Below, piece by piece: positions 2,961 through 46,800 of a DNA stretch of 64,000 nucleotides. The translations under genes were made by a program, and so were the position numbers. The DNA comes from Balamuthia mandrillaris (taxonomy: Eukaryota). Below the pieces are notes generated by a model. That model worked only from the letters and a program-made list of their open reading frames with translations, did no database searches and was not told the DNA's origin. The stretch lies in assembly GCA_031835245.2 (NCBI GenBank), contig JAVKOQ020000059.1, forward strand, positions 124,001 to 188,000. The letters are read 5' to 3'. Position 1 is the first letter of the stretch. Each line of letters begins with the position of its first letter.

Positions 2961-3886
2961 ATGGAAGCTCACAAACATGAAGACGGAGAGGAACAAGAAG
3001 AAGAAGAAGTGGTCGACTTGCGGGGCTTTGCTGCAAGGTCGCATACGCTTGCCAATCGGTTGAAAGACCTGGGCGTCGACTCGCTGATCGGCGATAGAAA
3101 ACGTAACCTCAAGACCCACCGAAACGTATTTGTTGGTTCGTGCTCCTTCCCTTCTTTCTTTCTTCTTTTTCCATCAGCTTCGCTCCTTCTCATTCTCTCT
3201 TTCGCGTCAAAAAAAACAAGGCAAAGAGTTCGTGGACTGGTTGATAGAGAAAGGAGAAGCAAAGACAAGAGAGGAAGCCGTTACCATGGGGCAAGACCTC
3301 ATCAACTGCGGTTACGTGCACCACGTTTCCGACTCTCACGGCTTCAAAGACGACAATCTCTTTTATCGCTTTCGAGTAATGTTCTTTCTCGTCGTTCCTT
3401 GGTTCTTCACTTCTTTCTAAGTTTAGTAACAACCAAACCAAACCAACAAACGTACAGCAAGGCGAAGCCAAAAAGACAAAGATCAAACAAGAGAAACGTA
3501 TCTTCAAGAACAAGAAAGGCGTTGCCATCGGCGGTTACGACTGCGTGGCCTACTTTGAGCAAGGACGAGCTCTCAAGGGCACGCCCCAGCTCTCCGAACG
3601 GTGGAGCGATGCCGAGTGGTGGTTCCACAGCGACAGCAACAGGGAGCTCTTTCGCAAGGATCCGGCCCGATACGCCCCACAGTACGGCGGGTACTGCGCC
3701 TTCGCCGTTGCCAACGGCTCCACGGCTGCCACCTCCCCGGAGGCATGGAAAGTGGTGGAAGGGAAGCTCTATCTCAACTACAACAAGGTGGTCAGAGCCC
3801 TGTGGAACAAAGCAGAGGATGCTGTGGTGAGAGGAGATCAACACTGGAGAACCATGGTTGGTGAGGGTGCTGGTGGGTGTAAGTAA
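2961..3886 (+). CDS. DEP domain + bacterial-type YHS-domain fusion protein (exons 2961-3135, 3221-3375, 3458-3886)
   Basis: DEP: IGDRKRNLKTHRNVFVGKEFVDWLIE...TREEAVTMGQDLINCGYVHHVSDSHGFKDDNLFYRF. YHS family: AIGGYDCVAYF...WWFHSDSNRELFRKDPARYAPQYGGYCAFAV...WKVVEGKLYLNYN. Both introns are GT-AG with matching phases. Confidence 0.82.
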
Positions 3887-3892
3887 AAGAAA

Positions 3893-4146
3893 AGGAGGAG
3901 GAGGAGGAGGAGGGAGGAGGGAGAGGGAGGAGGAGGGAGGGAGGAGGAGGAGGAGGAGGAGGAGGGAGGAGGAGGAGGAGGAGGAGAGGAGAGGGAGGGA
4001 GGGAGGAGGAGGGAGGAGGAGGAGGAGGGAGGAGGAGGAGGAGGGAGGAGGAGGAGGAGGAGGAGGAGGGGAGGGAGGAGGAGGAGGAGGAGGAGGAGGA
4101 GGAGGAGGAGGAGGAGGAGGAGGAGGAGGAGGAGGAGGAGGAGGAG
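3893..4146 (+). repeat. (GGA)n purine microsatellite between the converging 3' ends of the DEP-YHS and selenoprotein genes
   Basis: About 250 bp of near-pure GGA/GGGA repeats seen directly. Confidence 0.95.
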
Positions 4147-4254
4147 AACAAGAAGAACAGTAGTTTATAATAAGAAAAAGCAAAAAGAAAAGAATGGTTG
4201 GTGTGTACAAAAAAGAAATATAGAGAGAAAGAATAAAGGATAATACCTCTTTCA

Positions 4255-4322
4255 CTCAGCTCTTGCCCTGTTCCTCTCTTTTGGAGAAGGAAATAGCTTT
4301 CAGGGAAATACAAAAGCTTCAT
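4255..4322 (-). promoter_or_regulatory. Eukaryotic type II SECIS element in the 3' UTR of the PRXL2/SelU-like gene
   Basis: Minus strand reads AUGAA-GCUUUUG-uauuu-CCCUG-AAA-gcuau-UUCCUUCUC-caaaa-GAGAGGAA-CAGGG-CAAGAGC-UGAG. It has the UGAA/UGAG core, a 12-bp helix II (7+5 bp around a 5-nt bulge), unpaired AAA and an apical mini-helix, about 90 nt after the stop codon. Confidence 0.8.
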
Positions 4323-4411
4323 TGCTCTTTCTCTCTTCTTTCTTTTTTTGCGTTGGTTCATTGCTTTCCTGCTTCGTTTTCCCTATTCTTCTTTCTCGTT
4401 CTCGTTTTTGT

Positions 4412-5548
4412 TTACAAAGCAGCCGCTTCTTTTTGTTGTTCTTGTCGTCTGGGAAAGTGCTGTTTGACGGATTGCATCAGCTGGTCGAGGTCCGCATGCT
4501 CCCCAAAGCCTTGTTGATGGTGTTGAAAGACCAACTCGCCGCTCTGGCAGTCCACTACAAAGGTGCCGCCCAGTTGCCTAAACAAAAACGAATGTACATT
4601 CACTAAGGACAAGGGAGAAGCAGAAGAAGAAACAGAGAAGAACAAGAAGAACAACAAGACGAACAAGAAGGAAAAGAAGAACAAGGGCCAGAAGCACAAT
4701 AAGAAGAAACACGTTACCAGCCATCGCCAGCAAGGTCACCCTTAAAGCCCTTTCCATCGGCCCGTGAAGCAGCCGACCAAAAGGAAGGACGAAGCAGGCC
4801 AAGAACGGAACTTCTGCTTGCCTGTTTTGTTTTGTTTTTGAGTGAATGAGAGAGAGCGAGAGCAGAGAGAGCAGAGAGAGCAGAGAGCAGAGAGCAGAGA
4901 GCAGAGAGCAGAGAGCAGAGAGCAGAGAGAGAGAGCAGAGAGCAGAGAGCAGAGAGCAGAGAGCAGAGAGCAGAGAGCAGAGGAGCAGAGAGCAGAGAGC
5001 AGAGCAGAGAGCAGAGAGCAGAGAGCAGAGAGCAGAGAGCAGAGAGCAGAGAGCAGAGAGCAGAGAGCAGAGAGGGACCACCGTACCCCGAATGCCTGGT
5101 ACAATTGACGACGCGTGTCGAGGAGGAGGTGGTCCCCCTTCCAGTAGCCACCCGCCAGGAACTCCTCCACACCCAGGAGCTCATGACCGATGCCCACGAG
5201 GGCCACGTCGCGCGCGCGCAGCTCCTCGCCGAGGGAGGAAGAGAGCTCGTGAGCCCCCTCCCTAGTGAGAGGTCAGCCGAAGCGGCGGAGGAGGTGGACG
5301 GCGAGGCCGGCACGCCCGCCCGCGCAAAGGCTGCCCAAAGGGACCGCCTCTGCCTCCGCAGCAAGGTGGGAGCCCTGAAGGGTTCGCAAAGGGATGCTGG
5401 CGGCTTCCTTCCAGAACGTATTATTATGCTTCATCGTGGTGGTGGCGGTGGGGGTAGCGCTGTTCATGGGTGAAGAAAAATTGGTTGCAGCGAGTAGAAC
5501 TGCGAGGAGCAGGCAGAGAAGAGCAGCGACGGAGGCAAGAGCTCGCAT
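4412..5548 (-). CDS. Peroxiredoxin-like 2 (PRXL2B/FAM213B, SelU family) selenoprotein with signal peptide; Sec codon UGA at 5275-5273; exons 5548-5087, 4821-4718, 4577-4412 (about 243 aa)
   Basis: Reading through TGA gives HLLRRFG-U-PLTREGAHELS...VALVGIGHELLGVEEFLAGGYWKG...LLLDTRRQLYQAFG...GFKGDLAGDGWQLGGTFVV...GELVFQHHQQGFGEHAD. This aligns with FAM213B motifs (LRRFGCxxCR, VRLVGVGPEALGLQEFLDG, GNLSGDLLQSGG). Intron phases match and a SECIS lies downstream. Confidence 0.85.
4850..5074 (+). repeat. (CAGAGAG)n heptamer microsatellite filling intron 1 of the selenoprotein gene
   Basis: Tandem GCAGAGA units seen directly, inside the GT-AG intron 5086-4822 on the minus strand. Confidence 0.95.
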
Positions 5549-5942
5549 AGGAAAAGAAGGAGAAGGAGGAAGGAAAGGGTCACGCCTCGCTTCTCTCTTC
5601 TTTCTTCTCTGGCTGAATTTTGTTCCTAATAGGTTATGTTCCGAACATATTAGATTATTACATACGAGTTGAATTTATAGGACCACAAATCGAGCTTGAA
5701 AATTGCAGACATTGACATTGAAAGGAGGACAATAAATGATGTCACGTTTCCGTATGACGTCAGCAGAGTTTGTGTCGACAAAGAAAAAAAGAAAAAAGAA
5801 AGAAAGAGGGAAGAGCCAAGACTCCTTTCTCCTCTCGCTCTCTCTCTCGCTCTCTCTCTCTCTCCTCTCTCTCTACTCGCTTTGGTGAAAGCAAGGACTT
5901 GCACTGTGCTCAGTTTTCTCTGCTTTCGCGAAACAAAAAAAA

Positions 5943-32626: not shown

Positions 32627-33493
32627 ATGGAAGACTCGCAGGCATACAAGGTGGTGGTAATAACAGGGGCCAGCCAGGGCATAGGCCTGACACTCGCCCA
32701 ACAGCTGGCCGCCAGCAACCACCACCAAGCGGAGCAGCAGCCCAAGTACAAGCTGGTGCTGGCCGCTCGCTCACGGGAGGCCCTGGAGGAGGCGGCCAAC
32801 GCTCTCAACGAACAGGTCGCCGACAAGAGCTTTGCGCCCGTGGCCGTGGCCGTGCAGGCCGACGTCAGCAAGCGGGAGGACCACAAGCGGTTGCTCCAGA
32901 GCGCCATCGATGCCTTTGGCAGGGTGGACGTCTGGGTCAACAACGCCGGTCGCGGGATCACCAAGCCGGTGCTGGAGCTCACGGACGAGGACTTTGACGA
33001 CATGATGCTGGTCAACTGCAAGTCGGTGCTCTACGGCATGCAAACAGTGGTGCCCTACTTCAAGCAACAAGGCCGCGGGCACCTCATCAACGTATCCTCC
33101 GTGCTGGGCCGCCTGCCCTTCGCCTCCATCCGCTCCGCCTACAGCGCCGCCAAGCACGCCGTCAACTCCCTCACCTGCACCATGCGGATGGACCTCCTGA
33201 GGGAGGGCTTCCAGGACATCCACGTCACCCTGTTCTCCCCAGGCGCCGTGGCCACGGACTTTGGGCTCAACGCCCTGCACGGCGGGCCGGACAACCGGCA
33301 GCTGCCTGGGGCGCAGCCCGTGGAGGAGGTGGCGGAGGCCCTGGTCGATGCCATCCGCCGCCCCCGCGCCGATGTCTACTCCAGAGAGGCCTACCGCACC
33401 GCCGTGGCGGCCTATTACTCTGCCGAGAGGGTGGAGGAGATCGAGGCCAAGCACGCCGCCAGTCCTGTGCCCATCCTTTCCACCGCAAAGTAA
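32627..33493 (+). CDS. Short-chain dehydrogenase/reductase, intronless
   Basis: TGASQGIG, VDVWVNNAG, INVSSVLG, catalytic YSAAK, FSPGAVATDF. Confidence 0.93.
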   Translation: MEDSQAYKVVVITGASQGIGLTLAQQLAASNHHQAEQQPKYKLVLAARSREALEEAANALNEQVADKSFAPVAVAVQADVSKREDHKRLLQSAIDAFGRVDVWVNNAGRGITKPVLELTDEDFDDMMLVNCKSVLYGMQTVVPYFKQQGRGHLINVSSVLGRLPFASIRSAYSAAKHAVNSLTCTMRMDLLREGFQDIHVTLFSPGAVATDFGLNALHGGPDNRQLPGAQPVEEVAEALVDAIRRPRADVYSREAYRTAVAAYYSAERVEEIEAKHAASPVPILSTAK

Positions 33494-33551
33494 ACAACAT
33501 CATCCTCTTTTTTTTCACGGTTTTATAAATAATAGGTTTTTCTTCTGTGCG

Positions 33552-37884: not shown

Positions 37885-40800
37885 TTAAGAAGAGAAACAG
37901 GATGGCTCAAGGTCCACGTTCCAAACGGTGAGGGCGGCACCGCGTTGGTACCAATAGGAAGCAGGCAGAGAAGTGGGCATGCGCAGATAAATGGAGAAGA
38001 GCAGGTCCAAACGAGTGGGATTGAGATATACCGGCAACTCCACCTTGTTCTTGTGAAGAACGGCTAAGTCCACCGTCCCTTGTTGTGGTTGGGTCTCTCC
38101 GCGAGGAGGCACGTGCACCCACGTGAAACGCACGTCTGGCATGTTGGTGAACAGGTCTCTCGTGACGGCCAACTGACCTTTCATCCAGGAAGCTCCTTCA
38201 ATGCTGAGTCCATGCACTATGAAGCTGGTGCTGTCCGAAATGACTTGCTGCTCTCCCTCCTGTGATCCATCGAGCACGTCCACATGGAGGGCAAGGTTCT
38301 CTACGGACCAACCGTGAGCACGAGCGGCTGCCTGACGAGTGGCTGTGATGAAGGCCTCGGGGAAGAACAGACCGCCCACCCAGATGGTCAGTTGCTGTTT
38401 GTTGCGTTGGCGCAGGTGATGCAACTGCTTCATGCGGCGAGTGAGATCCACCAACCAAGCATTGACGCTAAGAGTCTCGGGTACGGCGTACATCCTCCAT
38501 TCTCGGGGGATGAGGCCTTTGAGCAGATCGCTCATGATGCTGCGCAAGTAGTTGGTTTGCTTGAGCTCGCCGCGGCATGTCAGTATGGTGTTCTGTAGAT
38601 CGCGACGTACTTTGACCACAAGACCAGCTCCCGCACTGAGCTCTCTTTGGAGGCAGCGAAGGACCGGATCATGTTCGCTGGCGCCGTAATCTTCTCCTCC
38701 TTGCTCCTTTTGCTTGCCCGGCATTTGAGCGAGTTGCTCAGGCAGCAGCAACAACCACTTCTCGGCGGTCTGACTGAGAGCTATCATCCAAGCGGGGAGA
38801 GCACCAGCTACCTCCTTCTCTTTATCTGGGGACTCAGACGAAGATGCGGCCTCATCCTCTTCAATGACTTGCATCTTCTGCAGCTTCTTGAGCATTTCCT
38901 TGCCCTTGTTGGCCAGCAACATCACCTCCGCGTTATCAGGCAGACCAAGCCATGCTGGTGTCTCGTTTTCAGGCATGCTTGCTTGCACCCACTTGATAAA
39001 GTCATCACGGCTTCGGCCATCGGGCACAGTTAGCACTTCGTCATTCTCAGCCGAAGAAGAACCGGCAGTAGAGGAAGCGAGGAGGGCATTGGTGAGCGGG
39101 AATTGAGCATCAAAGCTGTGCGGCGTGAAGAGGTGGTCGAGGAAGGAGTCAAGTAGGCGCTGATCGAAGGGATTATCTACGCGGCCGCCATACACGGTCT
39201 GGCCAAGCAGAGTGCGAAGGGCAACCCATGGGATACGCTCAGGCGGGATGTTGGAACGGCCTTGAGCACGCAAGTCCACCCAGTAGTCCACTGTGTCGAG
39301 CGCACAGCGCAAGTCTGACTCGTTGAACTCAAACATCTTGGACCAACCGAGTGGTGCATAGCGCAAGCGCTCTTGCACCACGGCATGGAACCACGCCAGC
39401 AGGAAGTAAAGGCGGACGCGTTCAACGGGCTGCCTCTCCATTCGGTCTGGCGTTATATTGGAGAAAGTATGCAGCAGGTTGGCGCGAATGCCTGGTGGAG
39501 GCTCGAATACGAACACATGCGCCTCTCGAAGGAGACTAGTTGGGAGACGAGGATGGATCTCTGAAGTAAGGAACAAGCGGAAGGTAGGCTTGGGTTCCAG
39601 GCTGTGAAGCTTCTTCTCCAGCTGTACCAGCCACTGCGGCGCCAAGTGGATGTTCTTGAGGAGGACCCAAGTACCCGACTTGGCGGCTGCCGCGATGGCT
39701 TTCTCCGCCAAATCGAAACCTTCTGCAGAGCCAAGAGCCAGTGACTTGCAGGCACGCTTCGTCTTGTTGACGAGCTCATCAACAAGATAGCTGGCATCAT
39801 GACCGGCGCTTGAGCACAGCAGCAAAGGTGAATCGCTGCTGCTTTCCTTCTCCACAACGTGCAGCAGGTCAAGGTCTGGAATGTGAAGGAACGCCTCTCC
39901 AAACACTTTAGCGGCGTATTGGGCAGCTCCAGCCCTTAGCCTGTCCGGTCTAAGTCCCTTCAACAATAGCAACCGCCTGAACAGAGCAATGACCTTCGAA
40001 GGAGAGGCTCCTGCGCCTTCTTGTTGAGCCTGTTCCCAGGAAGTCGGCACGTGGTGCTCCGCCGTTGGCGAGGTCAGGAAGTGCCTCCACTCTTCTTGGT
40101 TGCTGTTCATATGCTCTGCTATGCGAGCAAAGGACGGCAGCTTACGCAACTCAGAAATAAAGACTCGCTGTGGACCCGACAGGAAGTCCAGCCCCACAGT
40201 AGCTTCGTCGCTCTTTGCGGTGCCGCCAACGTTGTGGGTGCCTTTCAACAAAAAGTCAAACTCGGTGGGATTCGCTTGGTCCGGCGAGTCTTTGAGGCGG
40301 ATCTGAGTCAACCGCAGGGCAAACGTGAGCTGATCCTCATGAAGGAGACCTCTGGCCACGCGTTGGAATACCAGCTGGAACACATCGTGCATCAGCACGG
40401 AGAGGCGCTGAATGTGATCGGTCAGGCCGTCCAGGTGGTCGTTGCGCAGAAGAATGTCGTGGAAGATTCGCAAGAAGAAGTTCAACGAGAATTGATATAG
40501 GAAGTGTACGGAGGCGGTCTGCTCCAGAGCAAAATATATACCAGAACAGGCCACAGCCATTGGCACGTACTCCTCGCTGACAGTGCTGATCTCCTGCATA
40601 ACAACCTCGGTTTGAGCCATCTTGGCGGCAACGGAGGCAGCTTCGTTCTTCAAGGATTCCAACGTGCTAATGACGTGGTCATCTTCCAAAATGTTGTTGC
40701 CCTGAGAGGCATTCAAAGCATCCAACAAGGATTTCTCGAGGTTGCGCAAGCGCACCTTGAACTCGCCCTGCAGCTTGAGCAGGTCCACTCTCTTCTTGTG

Positions 40801-43800
40801 GACGTCGGGGCGCTCTGATTTGAGCACAGAGTGAAGGCACTGGCTCTGGAGGCTGCTAGGTGTCACAGTAAAGTTCACAAAGGTGACACGGCTGCAAAGA
40901 TCGGGAGTGAAGTGGGAGGTGGGATCTCTTGTAGACAAGAAGATGACAAACGAGGGAGAAAAGTCGACGTCTTGGTCGCCAAGCCTTATCAGCACGCGTC
41001 CACCGGTCTTACGAATCTCCTTGTTGAGGACTGGATTGAGAACGGGATCAATGCTTTCCACGTCTTCAACCAACAAGGGTGTGCCGAAACGAAGCGCGCT
41101 CTCCAAGTTCTTCATGAAAGAGGCATCGAGGAAGCTGGTCTTCTTGATCTTGAGGTCGGCGTACTGTTTCATCAAGAACTCGGCAGCCTGGCCCGATGGA
41201 TCGATAACCAACGGGTACCTATTGAAGCGGTGCAACATAATGGCGTTCTCCAAGCAGAGATCATCGGCAGGCAAGGCGTTGTTTTGCCAGGAGAGGCGCT
41301 CGTCGGGTGTAGAGAGGTACTCGATGACAGAGATATCTTCCTTGAAGGCTACGCCAACAGCCTGCAGGTGAGCTTTCCATTGGTTTTGAAGGGTAGTACG
41401 GTAGTGCTGATCAAAGAAGCCAATGTAGGCTAGGAAGGCAGCGCTGATGAAAGAGTCGCCTACAATGGTGGCCATGTGGGCCTTGAAGGTCTCACTGCTG
41501 CTCTCCCAACGATCCTTCTCCGAGTTGAGATTGTAGAGGAGGGCGGTGGATCTCTCTACCTTGGTCTTGACCGTCGCCATCTCGGCCTTGATGGCCTGAG
41601 TCTCGCTGATGAGCATGGCGTATTCGTCCTTGTAGCGGTTGATGCTAGCCTCAAGGTTGGCGATTGTGTTCTCCATCTCTTGCTGCTTGTCCTTTAGCTC
41701 GCCGGCGGCATCTTCTAGGCTTTGCACTTCTTGGCGAAGAGGCTCCACCTTGCCCAGAATGTCGGAGTAGGACACTTGGGCGATGATCCAGGCGGCGAGA
41801 GGGCCACAGGCTTTGCTGGCGTGATTTATCGTCTCAAAGTTGAACTCGGGGTCGCTGAGATACTCCTTCTTTAAGAGGGTACGCAGTTTGGCAGAAATAG
41901 TGTTGGTGTCGAACGACACGATGTTAGAGATGAAGGACTTGTCGACGATCATACGACGAATGCCATCCCAGGTTTGCTTCTGGTGGGTGATGAGAAGGCC
42001 AACAGCCTCCAGGGTCTTTTTGATCTTTTCAGGAGGTCTTCCCAGCACACGGATTTCCTCCAAGTGTTTTCGTTTGATGCCGGACACACTCTTCTTGGCG
42101 GCTTCGACGGCGGGCTCTGCTTTGCTAAGATCCTCGTAGGCCTTATCTTTCTTGATTTGAATCTCCTGCTCTTGCTTTTCCAACTTAAGGCGCAGCTCCT
42201 GAGCAGCTTGTCGCTGTTGCTCTGCTTCTTGCTGGTCTTTAACCATCTGCTGCAGCTTCTCATTGGCCTCAGCCTGCTTTTCCTCCAAGACCTGACTCTT
42301 CACGCGGAGACTTTGCTGCATTTCCTTGACAGCTTGTTCTGTGTCTCTAAGCTTTTGCAAGCCCACATTGACGTGAAGCTGCTGCTCTTCTAGCTCTTCC
42401 CTCTTTTCGTTGATGAGGCGCACAAAGTGGGCGATGAAATCAAGGTAATGACGAGGGGTGACATAGTTGGATCTGCCTTGTTGTCTAGAGAGCTGCCAGT
42501 TGGCGTCGTTAATGGTGTTGTGGACGTAGACGAGGGCGCTGATAACAGCATCGCGATGGGATGGATGAGTAGGATTAGACAAAGGAAGGTTGGTCTCTGG
42601 GAAGAAGTCAGGAGGTTGATAGGTAGGATCATCCAGATCCACGTTCTTAGTGAACTCGGAGCCCACTTGGAACAAAGCTGCATCGGACCACTCTCCGAAC
42701 CAGTCCAACACACAACGGTTGAACAAGGCAGGAGAAGTGGCAGCTCGGTTGTGGAAGTCGGGACTGGCAGGGTTCATCGTGAACACAATGTGAAGATTGT
42801 TACGGACCTGCAAGGTGAACCACTTGTACATCTCTTCCTCTGTGTCCAAAATAAGACCACGGTTCTGGACAGCTTCCTTGCATTGATGCATGAGTGTAGT
42901 ATATTCATCACCCTCAAAGAGACCGGGCACTTCACCGCTGGCCAGCAGCGTGTTCATCCTCTCCAGGAAGCTGGATTCCAGCACGTTGGACTCGTCGAAA
43001 ATGAAGCATATTTTCTCGTCAGCACAGCCCGCTCGCTTCATGACAGTTCGAAGATCGTTGTCGAAGTCTTCGGGGCTGTAGCGGTTGTTGACCTTGATGG
43101 TGAAGATGCTGAGTCCGTTCATCCACGCCACGAAGCGGGAGAGCACAGTCTTACCACCACCGCTCACACCAATAAGTAGAGCGTGTCCCTGTGGTTGACG
43201 GAACACTCGATCGATACGGAGAATGTGGTCCAACACTTCGTCAAAGATAACCAAGGGTACATCCAGCTCCTCCTCGTAGAATACCTTCAGCCTGGCCTTG
43301 ACGTAATCACGGAGCTCAGCTCGTTCCACACGTACGTACTCTTTAGAGAGCCAGTTACTGAAGAGTATGGGCCTGGCCAACGCCTTCTCATCGAGGTTGG
43401 GGAAGTGCTTCATGACGATGGCGTCAATAGTCTTGTCGGTCCATTGAGCTTCTTCTCGAGTGACCAGCCTATCCTGGAAGAGCCGCAGCCCTTCATGCAC
43501 CCACAAGCGCATGAGCTCTTCCAGAGCGATACCTTCTCTTGCCTTGATGGCTGTGTAGAGGGCACGCAACCAGCGAGACAGTTCTCTGGGACTGTAGATG
43601 TAATGGGCGTGCATATCTGGCGTGAACCGCTTCTGGGAGGTCAAATAGAACTCCACCATAGCTTCCGTGAGAGAAGCCGCCTGCGAGCGCAGAGGCGGTT
43701 GCAGCTTCATCAACGAGCGGTAGAAGGTGCCATAGATCTGAATCAACGAGGACTCGGAGGGGAAATCAACGAGCAATAGGGGCACATGTCGCAGGAACCT

Positions 43801-46800
43801 GTGGGACAAGGGCACACGGCCTGCGTCTGTGGGAGGGTTGCATGCTCCCACGAACTGGATCCTCTCCAGGGTGATCCACTCGTGGTCTTTGTTGCCATCC
43901 GTGTTGATCTTCCAGTAGCCACCCTGCTCTGTCAGCTGTCGCATAAACGTGATGACGCGTTGGGTGCCATACGTGTCGTTGGCAGGAAGGTTGACCTCAT
44001 CGCAAAACACGACCAGCCACTTGCCAACCTGCACAGGCTGCAGGACGGTTCCCTTGGGCGTATGCTTCAGCTCGCAGTGCTGCTCAAAGGTTTGCAGCAG
44101 GAGCTCTGGCGTTGTGGCGCTGGAAAAGTTGAGCGACACCATTTCAAAGTCGGGCAAGGATTTGAGGGTGCTATCTAGGGTCATGGTTTTACCGCTGCCT
44201 GGTGGGCCGCACAAGACGAGGGGTCTGTGCTCTGCCAACCAGGATCGAAGCACTTCGGTATGACGCACGGTATCCACAGTGGGAATGACCACATCCGGTG
44301 AGGCCACCATGTGAGTCTCCACTTCGACGGTTGGCACCAAAGTGCTCCACAGGTGCCAATCTCCGTCTTCCAGAGATACCCAGTAGTCCAGCAGGGAGGG
44401 ACCAGAGGGGTCTGGCATTGGCGTTGTGGCCAGGCTCATCACATGCTTGCCAAAGGCCTCCCTATCGGAAAGACCCATGCTGCCGCCCAATCCCCACATC
44501 AGGGCATAATACAACCGGTTCGTCATATATCTCTCCAGCCGGTCCATCGGCAAGTGGAAGTCCGGGTGCTCCTGGTTGTATTGCAGTATGTTGTAGATGC
44601 CTCTGTTGATGAGAGAGAACGATGACAGCAGCGTGCGCAAGCGAGTAAAGTCCATAATGTGGGTCTGTTTTTGGGCATAGGCCATACACTTGTCCACAAG
44701 GTTACCGTTCTCGAAGAAGGGTTCCAGGATCTTGGCCACATCTCGTTGAAGGAGCAAGCCAGAAGGAGCTTCTACTTTGCCCTCGTCCAACAAAGGCTCT
44801 TGCAGCGTGGAAGAGGAACCACCAGCGGTCGGTCTTTGCTTAGTGGCGGCGGTGACCCTACGGAACGACTCACGCTCCACTTCGTCGAGGGGCTCCCACT
44901 GAAGCCGGAGCAGGTAGTTAGTGTAGATCATCTGCGTGGTCAGCGTCTCCTCCGAGAACCAAACCATGCCACAGCGACTGACAGTGGCTGGGGTTGCATA
45001 GCGAAGGTCCTGTACTTCGAACATGACCCGCACGTTGTCGGGCAGAGCCAGACGCTCGCCGTTGGGAAGGGTCAGCAGCTTGTTGTCATCCAGTAAACTG
45101 TTCAAATTTTCAACCCATTCAGGGTCCACATCACCGTCGAAGACGAACCAGTGTCGCTTATTGCTCTCTCCTCGCACATTATCTACTATCTTACGAAGCA
45201 AGCCCGTAAACAGACCATCCGTCCATTCTCTGGTGGTGGCATCCAAAGAGCCAAAGAGCTGCTCCTTGGTGATAGCTTTGGGATCCAACACGTAGGCCTC
45301 GGCCTTGATGCCCTCGCACCTCTCCAAAGCTTCAAGCAGCACGCGCCATGCTGAGCTCTTGCCGCTGCCGGAAGGTCCTACCATCATAACACCATGTCTT
45401 AGTATTTGGATCTGGTAAAGTTGCAACAGCTTCGCTTCCCACTCTGGGCTGACCACGAGGAAACGTTCCTTGCAAATCTCTGCGATTTTGGCTCGCAGCT
45501 CGTCCAAACTTATTGGGTTGGGCACTGAATTGGGGAATACGTCAGACAGTAGCGCCTGGAACAATGGAACATCACCGGCCACCAGCTTTGGAATGACGTT
45601 CTCACAGATGCTTCGCAACAGGATCTCTTGTTCAAAGGTTGTCCACTCTGACTCGCTTTCCTTTGGCTTCTCTTCTTCCCCTTCCGTTATGGTGTAAGTC
45701 TTTCGCTTGATGTTACCAGCGCTCACCAACACGCTCTTCAGAGCTCGCAATCCAAAGTCGTAGTGGCTTTGGGTGGATAGTTGCTCGCGGCAGAGGTTGA
45801 ACAGTGGTACCACTTTGCTTGCTAAGCGCTCCGCCGTCTTGAAGCCTTGTGAATAAAGCATCACCTGAGAAAGAGAGGCTGGTCAGGACCTTGATTTCTT
45901 TTTGCCTAGACTAGAGCAAGCATACCTGAGCAATCAACTCTCTGTCCGGTTGAATCATAGCAACGCCACGGAAGAGTTGCTTAAGATTGTCCGGCAAATT
46001 AGAGCGTCCCGCATAACCTGGATTCATTGTCACGAAGATACCCTAAATAAAATTTGAGAAACAAGTTCATCACAATAAGATAACAGTTTTCACAGTGATT
46101 GAGGAGGATGTGTGTACCATGACGGGGTTGATTTTGACGGATTTGCCGATGATCTCCACTTCTTTGGCCTTCTCCTTGAGTGCCACTTGAATGCCCTGGA
46201 TCTGCTGAGAGACAGCAGAGAGCATCCGCTCTTCCAGACGATTGAATTCGTCAAAGCATCCCCACGCACCACATTGACAAAGTCCAACAAAGATACGGCC
46301 CATGGCTTGGAAGTCAAAGTTTTCATCACAACAAAATACCAAAACAAATCGACCAAGTTGAGTACCCAACGCCTTAACTGTTTCTGTTTTGCCGGTACCG
46401 GCAGGACCGAAAGGACTGCCACCCAGACGAGCTTCCAGGGCTTGCGTTAGGGTCAAGTAGCAACGATCCGTCAATGGGGTCTGCACAAGTCGTTCGGCCA
46501 CGCCCAAGTACTCGAATCCATAAGTGAATGAGGCATTGGCCATTCGCACGGTCAATCTTTTCAGAAGCGAGTCCTTGCTAGGGTTCCAATAAAATCTCAT
46601 TTCTTGGAGCCACATAAAGTCAGCGGCACTGCTTATTTTGTGCTTGATCAACTATATTAACGTGGACCAAAACAAGTGTCAGATAAGATAGTGTCAAACA
46701 AAAGCGAGCATGACTTCGAAACTAAAATACCTTTCGGATGACATCTCGTTGATGAACGCATTCAGTGATAAGGTGTTCGTGTTTTACACGCTTAGTTGGG

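What the first reader, a model, noticed from the sequence alone, without database searches (positions are those of the whole stretch)
4255..5548. Hidden selenoprotein: secreted PRXL2B/SelU-type redoxin with a UxxT active site and its own SECIS
Seen: the ORF track stops at TGA 5275-5273, but the frame continues with strong FAM213B/PRXL2B similarity, and the TGA sits exactly at the first Cys of the family motif RRFG-CxxC. The second position is Thr, giving U-P-L-T, with no resolving Cys. A hydrophobic signal peptide starts the protein and a SECIS-like hairpin follows the stop. Established: the SelU/PRXL2 family has Sec forms in some lineages (typically UxxC), and UxxT is the glutathione peroxidase arrangement. 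Inference: a secretory-pathway Sec peroxidase-like enzyme that automated annotation would truncate or mis-splice, implying a full Sec machinery in this amoeba.
Basis: partly seen in the sequence, partly recalled or inferred. Interest (0 to 1): 0.9.

Follow-up and report, generated by a model that had tools for sequence, protein, structure and literature searches.

The report
Mis-annotated selenoprotein gene in Balamuthia
A three-exon gene of the amoeba Balamuthia mandrillaris for a peroxiredoxin-like (PRXL2/SelU) enzyme keeps an in-frame UGA exactly where its relatives have the catalytic cysteine, so it likely encodes selenocysteine, and the public gene model hides this by cutting the codon out as a false intron.

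Summary
On the minus strand, a three-exon gene (5548..4412) encodes a 243-codon PRXL2/SelU-type redoxin. Codon 92 is TGA (5275-5273).

- **Active-site match:** the TGA aligns with the first Cys of RRFG-CxxC-R. That column is Cys in 112 of 124 homologues. Position +3 is Thr.
- **Annotation error:** the GenBank Balamuthia mandrillaris model is identical except that it removes 14 codons around the TGA as a 42-nt "intron".
- **Transcript evidence:** a correctly spliced transcript contig from a public run keeps those 42 nt and the TGA. RNA reads also carry the 3' UTR through a hairpin starting about 90 nt after the stop.
- **Hairpin:** it has an AAUGA/UGA core, 13 bp of helix 2, an unpaired AAA and a mini-stem. 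It is non-canonical, with a 5-nt bulge and UGAG instead of KGAW, and Rfam does not call it.
- **Relatives:** the Acanthamoeba orthologue has CxxC. A metagenomic relative has TGA at the same column.

Not testable here: the Sec machinery of Balamuthia (no genome held) and selenium incorporation.

Verdict: a real selenoprotein gene is likely (about 0.75). It is a new, UxxT-type member of a known family, of moderate interest.

The parts
5086..5548 (-). Exon 1 (codons 1-154): start ATG at 5548, hydrophobic N-terminus, Thr/Ser/Pro-rich linker, and the first half of the redoxin domain with the active site
   Evidence: Translation. Pfam AhpC-TSA_2 at 30 bits against a cutoff of 27. The X2 contig runs uninterrupted over 5086-5524.
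5483..5548 (-). Predicted signal peptide or membrane anchor (codons 1-22, MRALASVAALLCLLLAVLLAAT)
   Evidence: Mean Kyte-Doolittle hydropathy 3.1 for residues 7-21. Targeting is inferred; no signal-peptide predictor was run.
5273..5275 (-). In-frame TGA, codon 92, proposed selenocysteine codon (U-P-L-T)
   Evidence: It aligns with the first Cys of RRFGCxxCR. It is unchanged in the spliced transcript contig of run X2.
5258..5299 (-). The 42 nt (codons 84-97, VHLLRRFGUPLTRE) that the GenBank gene model removes as a GT..AG 'intron'
   Evidence: P0002 lacks exactly these 14 residues. The X2 transcript contig keeps them.
4821..5085 (-). Intron 1 (265 nt, GT..AG), mostly a CTCTCTGCT-type microsatellite
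   Evidence: Joint 4820>5086 in the X2 contig; sequence.
4717..4820 (-). Exon 2
   Evidence: X2 contig pieces; agrees with P0002.
4577..4716 (-). Intron 2 (140 nt, GT..AG)
   Evidence: Joint 4576>4717 in the X2 contig and in one X21 read.
4412..4576 (-). Exon 3, coding part, with stop TAA at 4414..4412
   Evidence: agrees with P0002.
4240..4411 (-). 3' UTR as far as RNA reads show it
   Evidence: X21 raw RNA reads: one pair covers 4346-4585. Four reads with four different starts cover about 4240-4409, at depth 4 over 4266-4313.
4254..4322 (-). SECIS-like hairpin. A-AUGA (4323..4319). Helix 2 of 8 bp, a 5-nt bulge (UAUUU), then 5 bp. Unpaired AAA (4300..4298) in an internal loop. Mini-stem and 5-nt apical loop. 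UGA-G 3' core (GA at 4257..4256).
   Evidence: Folds. It is the only TGA...GA hairpin in the UTR. It is one of 2 of 594 ATGA sites in the window passing a SECIS-like filter. Allele differences lie in the apical loop or keep pairing. There is no Rfam SECIS match.
4207..4351 (-). Possible extended helix 1: the purine-rich 4351..4325 pairs with the pyrimidine-rich 4233..4207. This part is uncertain.
   Evidence: The 181-nt fold gives -50.7 kcal/mol, z -3.87. RNA reads were seen only down to about 4240, so the 3' arm may lie outside the mRNA.

Best explanation
This is an intact, expressed Balamuthia mandrillaris gene for a PRXL2/SelU-family thioredoxin-fold redoxin. Its codon 92, UGA, is likely read as selenocysteine. 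The steps below are marked as shown or inferred.

- **Shown:** the UGA sits at the catalytic first-Cys position of the family motif RRFG-CxxC-R.
- **Shown:** the UGA is kept in correctly spliced mRNA.
- **Shown:** the frame behind it stays open and homologous across two more exons.
- **Shown:** the 3' UTR carries a hairpin with a SECIS-type AUGA/GA core.
- **Shown:** the GenBank model removes the codon as a false 42-nt intron.
- **Inferred:** the hairpin acts as a type-II SECIS that recruits the Sec-insertion machinery to the UGA about 550 nt upstream.
- **Inferred:** the hydrophobic N-terminus sends the protein into the secretory pathway, behind a variable Thr/Ser/Pro-rich linker.
- **Inferred:** position +3 is Thr rather than the family's second Cys. 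The enzyme would therefore work as a one-selenol reductase. Sec92 attacks a peroxide, endoperoxide or disulfide substrate. The oxidised selenium is then resolved by an outside thiol (glutathione or thioredoxin) or by Cys75 or Cys196.
For: 1. **Homology at the exact column.**
   - 9us9 prostamide/PGF synthase matches at E 6.9e-11. Its CxxC is aligned to U..T, and both Cys are mutated to Ser in the depositors' variant 9usa.
   - The column is Cys in 112 of 124 homologues.
   - Pfam AhpC-TSA_2 scores above its cutoff.
2. **A Sec form exists at the same column.** Metagenome locus L001 (70% identical to P0042 over 73 residues) reads ...FLRRFG-TGA-QLCR..., and the open frame continues for 158 more codons.
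3. **The UGA is in mRNA.** The X2 contig of 669 nt is spliced at both true introns and runs through 5086-5524. All of its 7 differences and its 6-nt indel lie at 5418-5477. None lies at the TGA or in the 42 nt.
4. **The UTR includes the hairpin**.
5. **Hairpin anatomy.**
   - An A precedes AUGA, with tandem G.A/A.G possible against the GA.
   - There are 13 bp to an unpaired AAA, followed by a mini-stem.
   - It is the only such candidate in the UTR.
   - Only 2 of 594 ATGA sites on both strands of the 64-kb window pass the same filter. That filter was written after seeing the candidate.
6. **Natural variation.** The three differences in the X21 reads are a C>U that turns C-G into U.G, plus a substitution and a 3-nt insertion in the apical loop. 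The fold is kept at -49.6 against -50.7 kcal/mol.
7. **Sister lineage.** Passages of PMC8038987 report a tRNA-Sec, a SelB/EFSec candidate and a SECIS-bearing thioredoxin reductase for Acanthamoeba castellanii. The orthologue there (P0010, XP_004337233.1) groups with this protein at SH-aLRT 95.
Against: - **No Rfam SECIS match.** None appears at E<=10 in 2 kb or in 291 nt around the hairpin.
- **The hairpin departs from the SECISearch3 description** (UGAN/KGAW core, limited bending of helix 2; passages of PMC3753652). The 3' core is UGAG. A 5-nt one-sided bulge puts the AAA 18 nt after the core.
- **Weak stability alone.** The short fold is no more stable than shuffles (z -1.14, 26 of 200 shuffles as good).
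- **Helix 1 is doubtful.** It rests on low-complexity purine/pyrimidine tracts, and reads stop near 4240.
- **Thin read support.** Only 4 reads of one run (X21) cover the hairpin. X22 and X23 have none there, and X2 has no contig below 4445.
- **The orthologue uses Cys.** The Acanthamoeba orthologue has Cys at both positions. Both active-site cysteines are therefore altered here, which could also be read as decay.
- **Machinery unseen.** Sec machinery in Balamuthia was not examined, and the window has no tRNA gene.
- **Too few differences for selection tests.** Behind the UGA there are only 2 synonymous and 2 non-synonymous allele differences, too few to show selection.
Confidence: 0.75

Rival explanations
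1. Expressed pseudogene or null allele. The TGA is a true stop that arose from TGY at the catalytic Cys, only a 91-residue fragment is made, and the hairpin is a chance structure.
For: - The Acanthamoeba orthologue has CxxC.
- Both motif cysteines are changed here.
- The hairpin is non-canonical and gets no Rfam SECIS hit.
- The short fold is not better than shuffles.
- The Sec machinery was not verified.
Against: - The 151 codons behind the TGA stay open across two correctly spliced introns and remain homologous, including the C-terminal block shared with P0010.
- The transcript contig has depth 54.9 with no sign of decay.
- The second allele shows no difference across codons 45-154, while the linker carries 7 differences plus an indel.
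- Cys to Thr at +3 needs two base changes, so the active-site change is old and not a fresh lesion.
- A stop at exactly the catalytic Cys column, together with an AUGA/GA hairpin in a UTR of about 170 nt, is improbable by chance.
Confidence: 0.13
2. Sec-independent read-through. The UGA (followed by C) is read at low level by a near-cognate tRNA, inserting Trp, Cys or Arg and giving a full-length protein without selenium.
For: The full-length frame is conserved, while the SECIS is not canonical.
Against: - Trp or Arg at the catalytic position would inactivate the enzyme.
- A relative keeps TGA at the same column, as expected for Sec.
- The hairpin has the SECIS core and AAA.
- TGA closes 3 of the 13 ORFs of 300 codons or more in the window, so there is no sign of general reassignment. 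This is weak evidence, because such ORFs may end inside introns.
Confidence: 0.06
3. The GenBank model is right. The 42 nt at 5299..5258 are a real in-frame mini-intron, and the protein lacks the active-site loop.
For: - The 42 nt begin with GT and end with AG.
- The deposited protein P0002 is built that way.
Against: - The spliced X2 transcript contig retains the 42 nt, and no joint is reported there.
- The two confirmed introns are 140 and 265 nt.
- Removal would delete RRFG-x-PLTR, the most conserved block of the family.
- Contigs drop rare variants, so a minor isoform cannot be excluded.
Confidence: 0.03

Closest known systems
Selenoprotein U (SelU) / PRXL2 family selenoproteins of fish, birds, green algae and diatoms (passages of PMC2375036 and PMC3316567)
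   Same: - Same Pfam family, AhpC-TSA_2.
- Sec replaces the first Cys of the RRFGCxxC motif, as in metagenomic relative L001, which reads RRFG-TGA-QLC.
- The UGA lies far upstream of a 3'-UTR element.
   Different: - Position +3 is Thr (UPLT), not Cys.
- The protein has an N-terminal hydrophobic leader and a Thr/Ser/Pro linker.
- The host is an amoebozoan. Dictyostelium's five selenoproteins do not include SelU (PMC2375036, Table 2 as quoted).
- The SECIS-like hairpin has a bulged helix 2 and a UGAG core.
Acanthamoeba castellanii ACA1_219050 (XP_004337233.1, P0010), the apparent orthologue
   Same: - It groups with the window protein at SH-aLRT 95, in a tree of 75 of the 125 sequences (those of 150-300 residues).
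- It is 38% identical to P0002 over 196 columns, with a strongly shared C-terminal block.
- It shares Cys75 and Cys196.
   Different: - It has CVLC where Balamuthia has UPLT.
- Its deposited model lacks the hydrophobic N-terminus.
Prostamide/prostaglandin F synthase (PRXL2B), PDB 9us9/9usa
   Same: - Best solved relative, at E 6.9e-11.
- The motif LRRFGCVVCR aligns with LRRFGUPLTR.
   Different: - It is a CxxC enzyme of 198 residues.
- The match starts at residue 18 of the chain and residue 64 of the query, so the leader and linker of the Balamuthia protein have no counterpart in the alignment.
- No Sec.
Cys-x-x-Thr PRXL2 homologues of the fungus Entomophthora muscae (P0005, P0026, P0024; KAJ9067231.1, KAJ9063121.1, KAJ9062622.1)
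   Same: - Same family.
- Same loss of the second Cys, with motifs RRFGCPLTR and GRFGCPFTR.
   Different: - They have Cys, not Sec.
- In the tree the one Entomophthora row long enough to be included (P0024), with P0124, sits in another clade. The Thr therefore seems to have arisen independently.
Glutathione peroxidases (UxxT redox motif; PMC1088965 passages)
   Same: Sec followed by Thr at +3, and one-selenol chemistry without a CxxC partner.
   Different: - It is a different family. Pfam gives no GPx domain for this protein.
- The resemblance is confined to the motif.

Membership tests
PRXL2 / SelU (Pfam PF13911 AhpC-TSA_2) | Sequence match to the family profile above Pfam's curated cutoff | tested here: met
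   Exon 1 alone scores 30 bits against a cutoff of 27, E 7.3e-07. PF13911 is precomputed for P0002. 124 homologues were found at E<=0.001.
PRXL2 / SelU (Pfam PF13911 AhpC-TSA_2) | Active-site block RRFG-C-x-x-C-R with both cysteines | tested here: not met
   The block is present, but it reads RRFG-U-PL-T-R. The first position is UGA and the second is Thr. 105 of 124 homologues are CxxC and 6 are CxxT. This is a variant active site, not a failure of homology.
Eukaryotic selenoprotein gene | In-frame UGA aligned with Cys or Sec of homologues, with conservation continuing downstream | tested here: met
   A relative has TGA at the same column.
Eukaryotic selenoprotein gene | UGA present in the mature, spliced mRNA | tested here: met
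   The spliced X2 contig covers 5086-5524 with no change at 5273-5275.
Eukaryotic selenoprotein gene | [quoted passage not shown] | tested here: inconclusive
   - **Present and transcribed:** the AUGA/GA core, a preceding A, 13 bp of helix 2, AAA and a mini-stem.
- **Deviations:** a UGAG core, a 5-nt bulge, and no Rfam SECIS hit.
- SECISearch3 was not available.
Eukaryotic selenoprotein gene | Host has tRNA-Sec, EFSec, SBP2, SPS2, PSTK and SepSecS | not testable with these tools
   No whole genome is held for the window, and the window has no tRNA. The only support is by relatedness: Acanthamoeba is reported to have tRNA-Sec and SelB (PMC8038987 passages).
Eukaryotic selenoprotein gene | Selenium incorporated into the protein | not testable with these tools
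   This needs 75Se labelling or mass spectrometry.
Glutathione peroxidase | GPx domain | tested here: not met
   Pfam lists only AhpC-TSA_2, plus a sub-threshold low-complexity hit.

The most novel reading that the evidence does not exclude
Balamuthia makes a secretory-pathway, one-selenol (U-x-x-T) PRXL2 enzyme. It is decoded through a lineage-specific SECIS whose helix 2 carries a 5-nt bulge and whose core ends in UGAG. This would be a Sec form of a family in which the second cysteine has been given up, so the enzyme works like a glutathione peroxidase on a peroxiredoxin-like scaffold. It would also mean that current SECIS models miss part of the selenoproteome of the acanthamoebid amoebae.
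Probability: 0.45. Interest if true: 0.55.

Novelty: new variant of a known kind. Interest (0 to 1): 0.45.

Why it matters
- **Annotation:** it corrects a public gene model that deletes the active site of the enzyme.
- **Biology of the organism:** none of my three Balamuthia searches turned up a paper that discusses selenoproteins or selenocysteine in Balamuthia. rest on titles and abstract starts apart from PMC9083255. In that paper both terms stand only in the reference list. This gene is the first concrete lead that this human-pathogenic amoeba uses selenocysteine.
- **Enzymology:** it offers a natural Sec-x-x-Thr variant of the PRXL2/SelU family, whose chemistry can be compared directly with the Cys-x-x-Cys orthologue of Acanthamoeba.
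- **SECIS prediction:** if the bulged hairpin works, it is a useful training case for SECIS predictors outside animals.
- **Limits:** SelU selenoproteins in protists and Sec use in Acanthamoeba are already known, so a specialist would find this plausible more than startling.

Tried and rejected
- **Rfam.** No SECIS family matched at E<=10 in 3800-5800 or in 4130-4420. The listed matches were weak miRNA or sRNA chance hits.
- **Positive control with L001.** I tried the TGA-bearing relative L001 as a positive control for SECIS detection. Neither Rfam nor my scans found a convincing SECIS in its 850-nt downstream part. The control therefore says nothing either way, and L001's Sec status rests on homology only.
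- **Whole-genome search for Sec machinery.** No genome is held.
- **ARAGORN on the window.** It found 0 tRNA genes.
- **Earlier findings of this scan.** Nothing for this genome or this sequence. The word search gave only unrelated selenoprotein cases.
- **Reads at 95% likeness.** They gave no depth over 4170-4316. The hairpin reads appeared only at 85%.
- **Short 106-nt fold.** z was -1.14, not distinctive.
- **Allele differences behind the UGA.** There are 2 synonymous and 2 non-synonymous, too few for a selection test.
- **GPx membership.** Rejected.
- **The 42-nt intron of the GenBank model.** Rejected.
- **Second site passing my SECIS-like filter.** The site at 33503 on the minus strand lies inside long ORFs and has an irregular stem, so it is taken as chance.
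- **Literature.** Searches for 'selenoprotein U' with 'Amoebozoa' returned 0 papers. Of the 4 and 2 papers returned by the two Balamuthia selenium searches, none has either term in its title. I opened only PMC9083255, where both terms stand in the reference list alone.
- **Not done.** No structure prediction or complex prediction was run. No supplementary files were opened.
Full report
**What is in the sequence**

- The gene lies on the minus strand.
- The ORF list stops at TGA 5275-5273 after 91 codons. With TGA read through, the frame continues to a GT at 5085.
- A spliced contig of public run X2 gives the exon structure. The exons are 5548..5086, 4820..4717 and 4576..4412. The introns are 265 and 140 nt, both GT..AG.
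- The joined CDS is 732 nt: 243 codons plus TAA at 4414..4412.
- The product starts with a very hydrophobic segment (mean hydropathy 3.1 for residues 7-21), followed by a Thr/Ser/Pro-rich stretch.
- The redoxin domain follows, with ...LAVHLLRRFG-U-PLT-REGAHEL...

**Which organism, and what the public annotation does**

- The only close database protein is a GenBank entry of Balamuthia mandrillaris. It has 229 residues and is named 'Peroxiredoxin-like 2 activated in M-CSF stimulated monocytes'.
- It is identical to the window's product except that 14 residues, VHLLRRFGUPLTRE, are missing.
- Those 42 nt (5299..5258) start with GT and end with AG. The gene predictor therefore removed the stop codon as an in-frame mini-intron.

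**Homology at the UGA**

- Pfam places exon 1 in AhpC-TSA_2 (PF13911), at 30 bits against a cutoff of 27.
- The best solved relative is prostamide/prostaglandin F synthase 9us9 (E 6.9e-11). Its LRRFGCVVCR aligns with LRRFGUPLTR, and the depositors' variant 9usa has both cysteines changed to serine.
- An exhaustive HMMER search gave 124 proteins at E<=0.001. The two motif columns are:

| Column | Cys | Other residues | Absent |
|---|---|---|---|
| The UGA position | 112 | Trp 7, Asp 1 | 4 (one is the GenBank model itself) |
| Position +3 | 114 | Thr 6, Leu 1 | 3 |

- Of the six Cys-x-x-Thr proteins, three are from the fungus Entomophthora muscae and three are unnamed Logan contigs.
- I built a tree of 75 rows: the window protein and the 74 hits of 150-300 residues (shorter and longer hits left out). 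The window protein groups with Acanthamoeba castellanii ACA1_219050, an IMG metagenome protein and a Cyanophora protein at SH-aLRT 95. The CxxT proteins P0024 and P0124 sit elsewhere.
- The closest named relative, from the sister amoeba, has CVLC. The Thr therefore seems to have arisen independently of the fungal forms.

**A Sec form in a relative**

- The seven 'Trp' proteins made me suspect TGA read as Trp by a gene caller.
- A scan of metagenome contigs with one of them (P0042) returned one locus, L001.
- L001 reads ...FLRRFG-TGA-CAG-TTG-TGC-CGG... That is RRFG-U-QLC-R in a 200-codon frame with no other TGA.
- In-frame TGA at this exact column does therefore occur in the family.
- I could not find a SECIS in L001. 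Its Sec status is by homology only.
- Passages of PMC2375036 and PMC3316567 state that SelU is a selenoprotein in fish, birds, Ostreococcus and Thalassiosira, and a Cys protein in mammals.

**Is the UGA in the mRNA?**

- Run X2 holds a 669-nt contig of depth 54.9 that is spliced at both introns, so it derives from RNA. It runs without a break over 5086-5524.
- Its 7 differences and one 6-nt indel all lie at 5418-5477, in the linker. None lies at 5273-5275 or within the 42 nt.
- Five of those 7 differences change the amino acid. Codons 45-154 are identical.
- The UGA is therefore neither a read error of this assembly nor spliced out in the dominant transcript.

**The hairpin**

- **Core:** about 90 nt after the stop lies A-AUGA (4323..4319).
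- **Stem and loops:**
  - Helix 2 has 8 bp, a 5-nt bulge (UAUUU), then 5 more bp.
  - An internal loop begins with AAA.
  - Next come a mini-stem and a 5-nt apical loop.
  - On the 3' side the sequence is U-GA-G (GA at 4257..4256).
- **Uniqueness in the UTR:** it is the only TGA...GA hairpin there.
- **Background rate:**
  - The filter required an ATGA...GA closing stem, energy at most -15 kcal/mol, and AA at the 5' side of a loop reached after 9-15 bp.
  - It passed 2 of 594 ATGA sites on both strands of the window.
  - Without the AA and single-stem conditions, 16 sites reach -20 kcal/mol.
  - The filter was written after seeing the candidate, so its rarity is overstated.
- **Stability:** the 106-nt fold alone is unremarkable (z -1.14). 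With flanks, a purine tract (4351..4325) pairs with a pyrimidine tract (4233..4207), giving -50.7 kcal/mol and z -3.87. Such tracts are common in this DNA.
- **Departures from the SECISearch3 description** (core UGAN/KGAW, limited bending of helix 2): the hairpin has UGAG and a one-sided 5-nt bulge. Rfam reports no SECIS family.
- **Amoebozoan comparison:** Dictyostelium SECIS elements are type II with an unpaired AAA (PMC2375036 passage). The present hairpin resembles them in that respect.

**Is the hairpin transcribed, and how does it vary?**

- At 95% likeness no RNA read lay on 4170-4316.
- At 85%, run X21 gave one pair covering 4346-4585. It also gave four reads with four different starts covering about 4240-4409, at depth 4 over 4266-4313. 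X22 and X23 gave none below 4346.
- These reads come from a diverged allele or strain. They differ from the window at three places:
  - 4305 on the plus strand, which is a C>U at the first pair of the upper helix 2 and turns C-G into U.G;
  - 4280, in the apical loop;
  - a 3-nt insertion behind 4281, also in the apical loop.
- The core, the lower helix, the bulge and the AAA are unchanged. The fold of the variant keeps the same architecture (-49.6 kcal/mol).
- This is compatible with a constrained structure. It is not covariation, and it rests on four reads.

**Sec machinery**

- No genome is held for the window, and the window has no tRNA gene.
- For Acanthamoeba castellanii, passages of PMC8038987 report a thioredoxin reductase with UGA and a predicted type-I SECIS, a tRNA-Sec entry and a SelB candidate.
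- The searches for Balamuthia with 'selenoprotein', 'selenocysteine' or 'thioredoxin reductase' gave no paper that I could see addressing the question. I judged this from titles and abstract starts, and opened only PMC9083255.

**Mechanism**

- Shown:
  - family membership;
  - UGA at the catalytic column;
  - Thr at +3;
  - the hydrophobic leader;
  - UGA in mRNA;
  - the hairpin in the UTR.
- Inferred: Sec insertion via the hairpin, entry into the secretory pathway, and a one-selenol catalytic cycle resolved by an external thiol.
- 'No resolving Cys' needs a caveat. Cys75 and Cys196 remain, and both are shared with the Acanthamoeba orthologue. The Cys75 column is Cys in only 9 of 125 rows, including three of the six other CxxT proteins.
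- From the positions of these two cysteines in the sequence I think a structural disulfide is more likely. I could not measure distances.
- UxxT is listed as the glutathione peroxidase motif in PMC1088965. That is a motif parallel, not membership.

**Verdict**

- The selenoprotein reading is likely (0.75).
- The main rival is an expressed pseudogene (0.13).
- It is a new, UxxT-type member of the SelU/PRXL2 selenoprotein family in an amoebozoan, with a non-canonical SECIS candidate. Interest is moderate.

Noticed in passing
P0042, P0045, P0056, P0066, P0070, P0088, P0110; L001:121-126: Seven unnamed ENA/Logan homologues have Trp at the first-Cys column (RRFGWxxCR), in at least three places of the tree. 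A metagenome relative of one of them has TGA at that codon. The Trp residues are probably Sec codons translated as Trp by the source pipelines, so UxxC SelU forms may be commoner in environmental data than the protein databases show.
   Followed up: partly
window 5418-5477 (codons 24-44): The Thr/Ser/Pro-rich linker behind the leader is the only part of exon 1 that differs between the window and the X2 transcript contig. It carries 7 substitutions, 5 of them non-synonymous, and a 6-nt indel. X2 also holds two variants of 5495-5610, so two alleles or strains seem to be present.
   Followed up: partly
window 4850-5080: Intron 1 is almost entirely a CTCTCTGCT-type microsatellite. It attracts many reads that run on into unrelated sequence, so depth there says nothing about this gene.
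   Followed up: no
window 3900-4165: A long (CCT)n / (AGG)n tract fills the space between this gene's 3' end and a convergent plus-strand ORF, 3545..3886 (113 aa). That ORF looks like real coding sequence. It was not examined.
   Followed up: no
Column of Cys75 (window 5324-5326): Most family members have Trp here (81 of 125 rows). Cys occurs in 9 rows: the two Balamuthia rows (P0001 and P0002), the Acanthamoeba and IMG relatives, and three of the six other Cys-x-x-Thr proteins. It could be an alternative resolving cysteine in forms that lost the second motif Cys.
   Followed up: partly
window 33420-33503, minus strand: This is the only other ATGA...GA hairpin in the window that passed my SECIS-like filter. 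It lies inside long ORFs on both strands and has an irregular stem, so it is probably chance.
   Followed up: no
window 37885-45882, minus strand: A single open frame of 2665 codons, the longest in the window. It was not examined.
   Followed up: no
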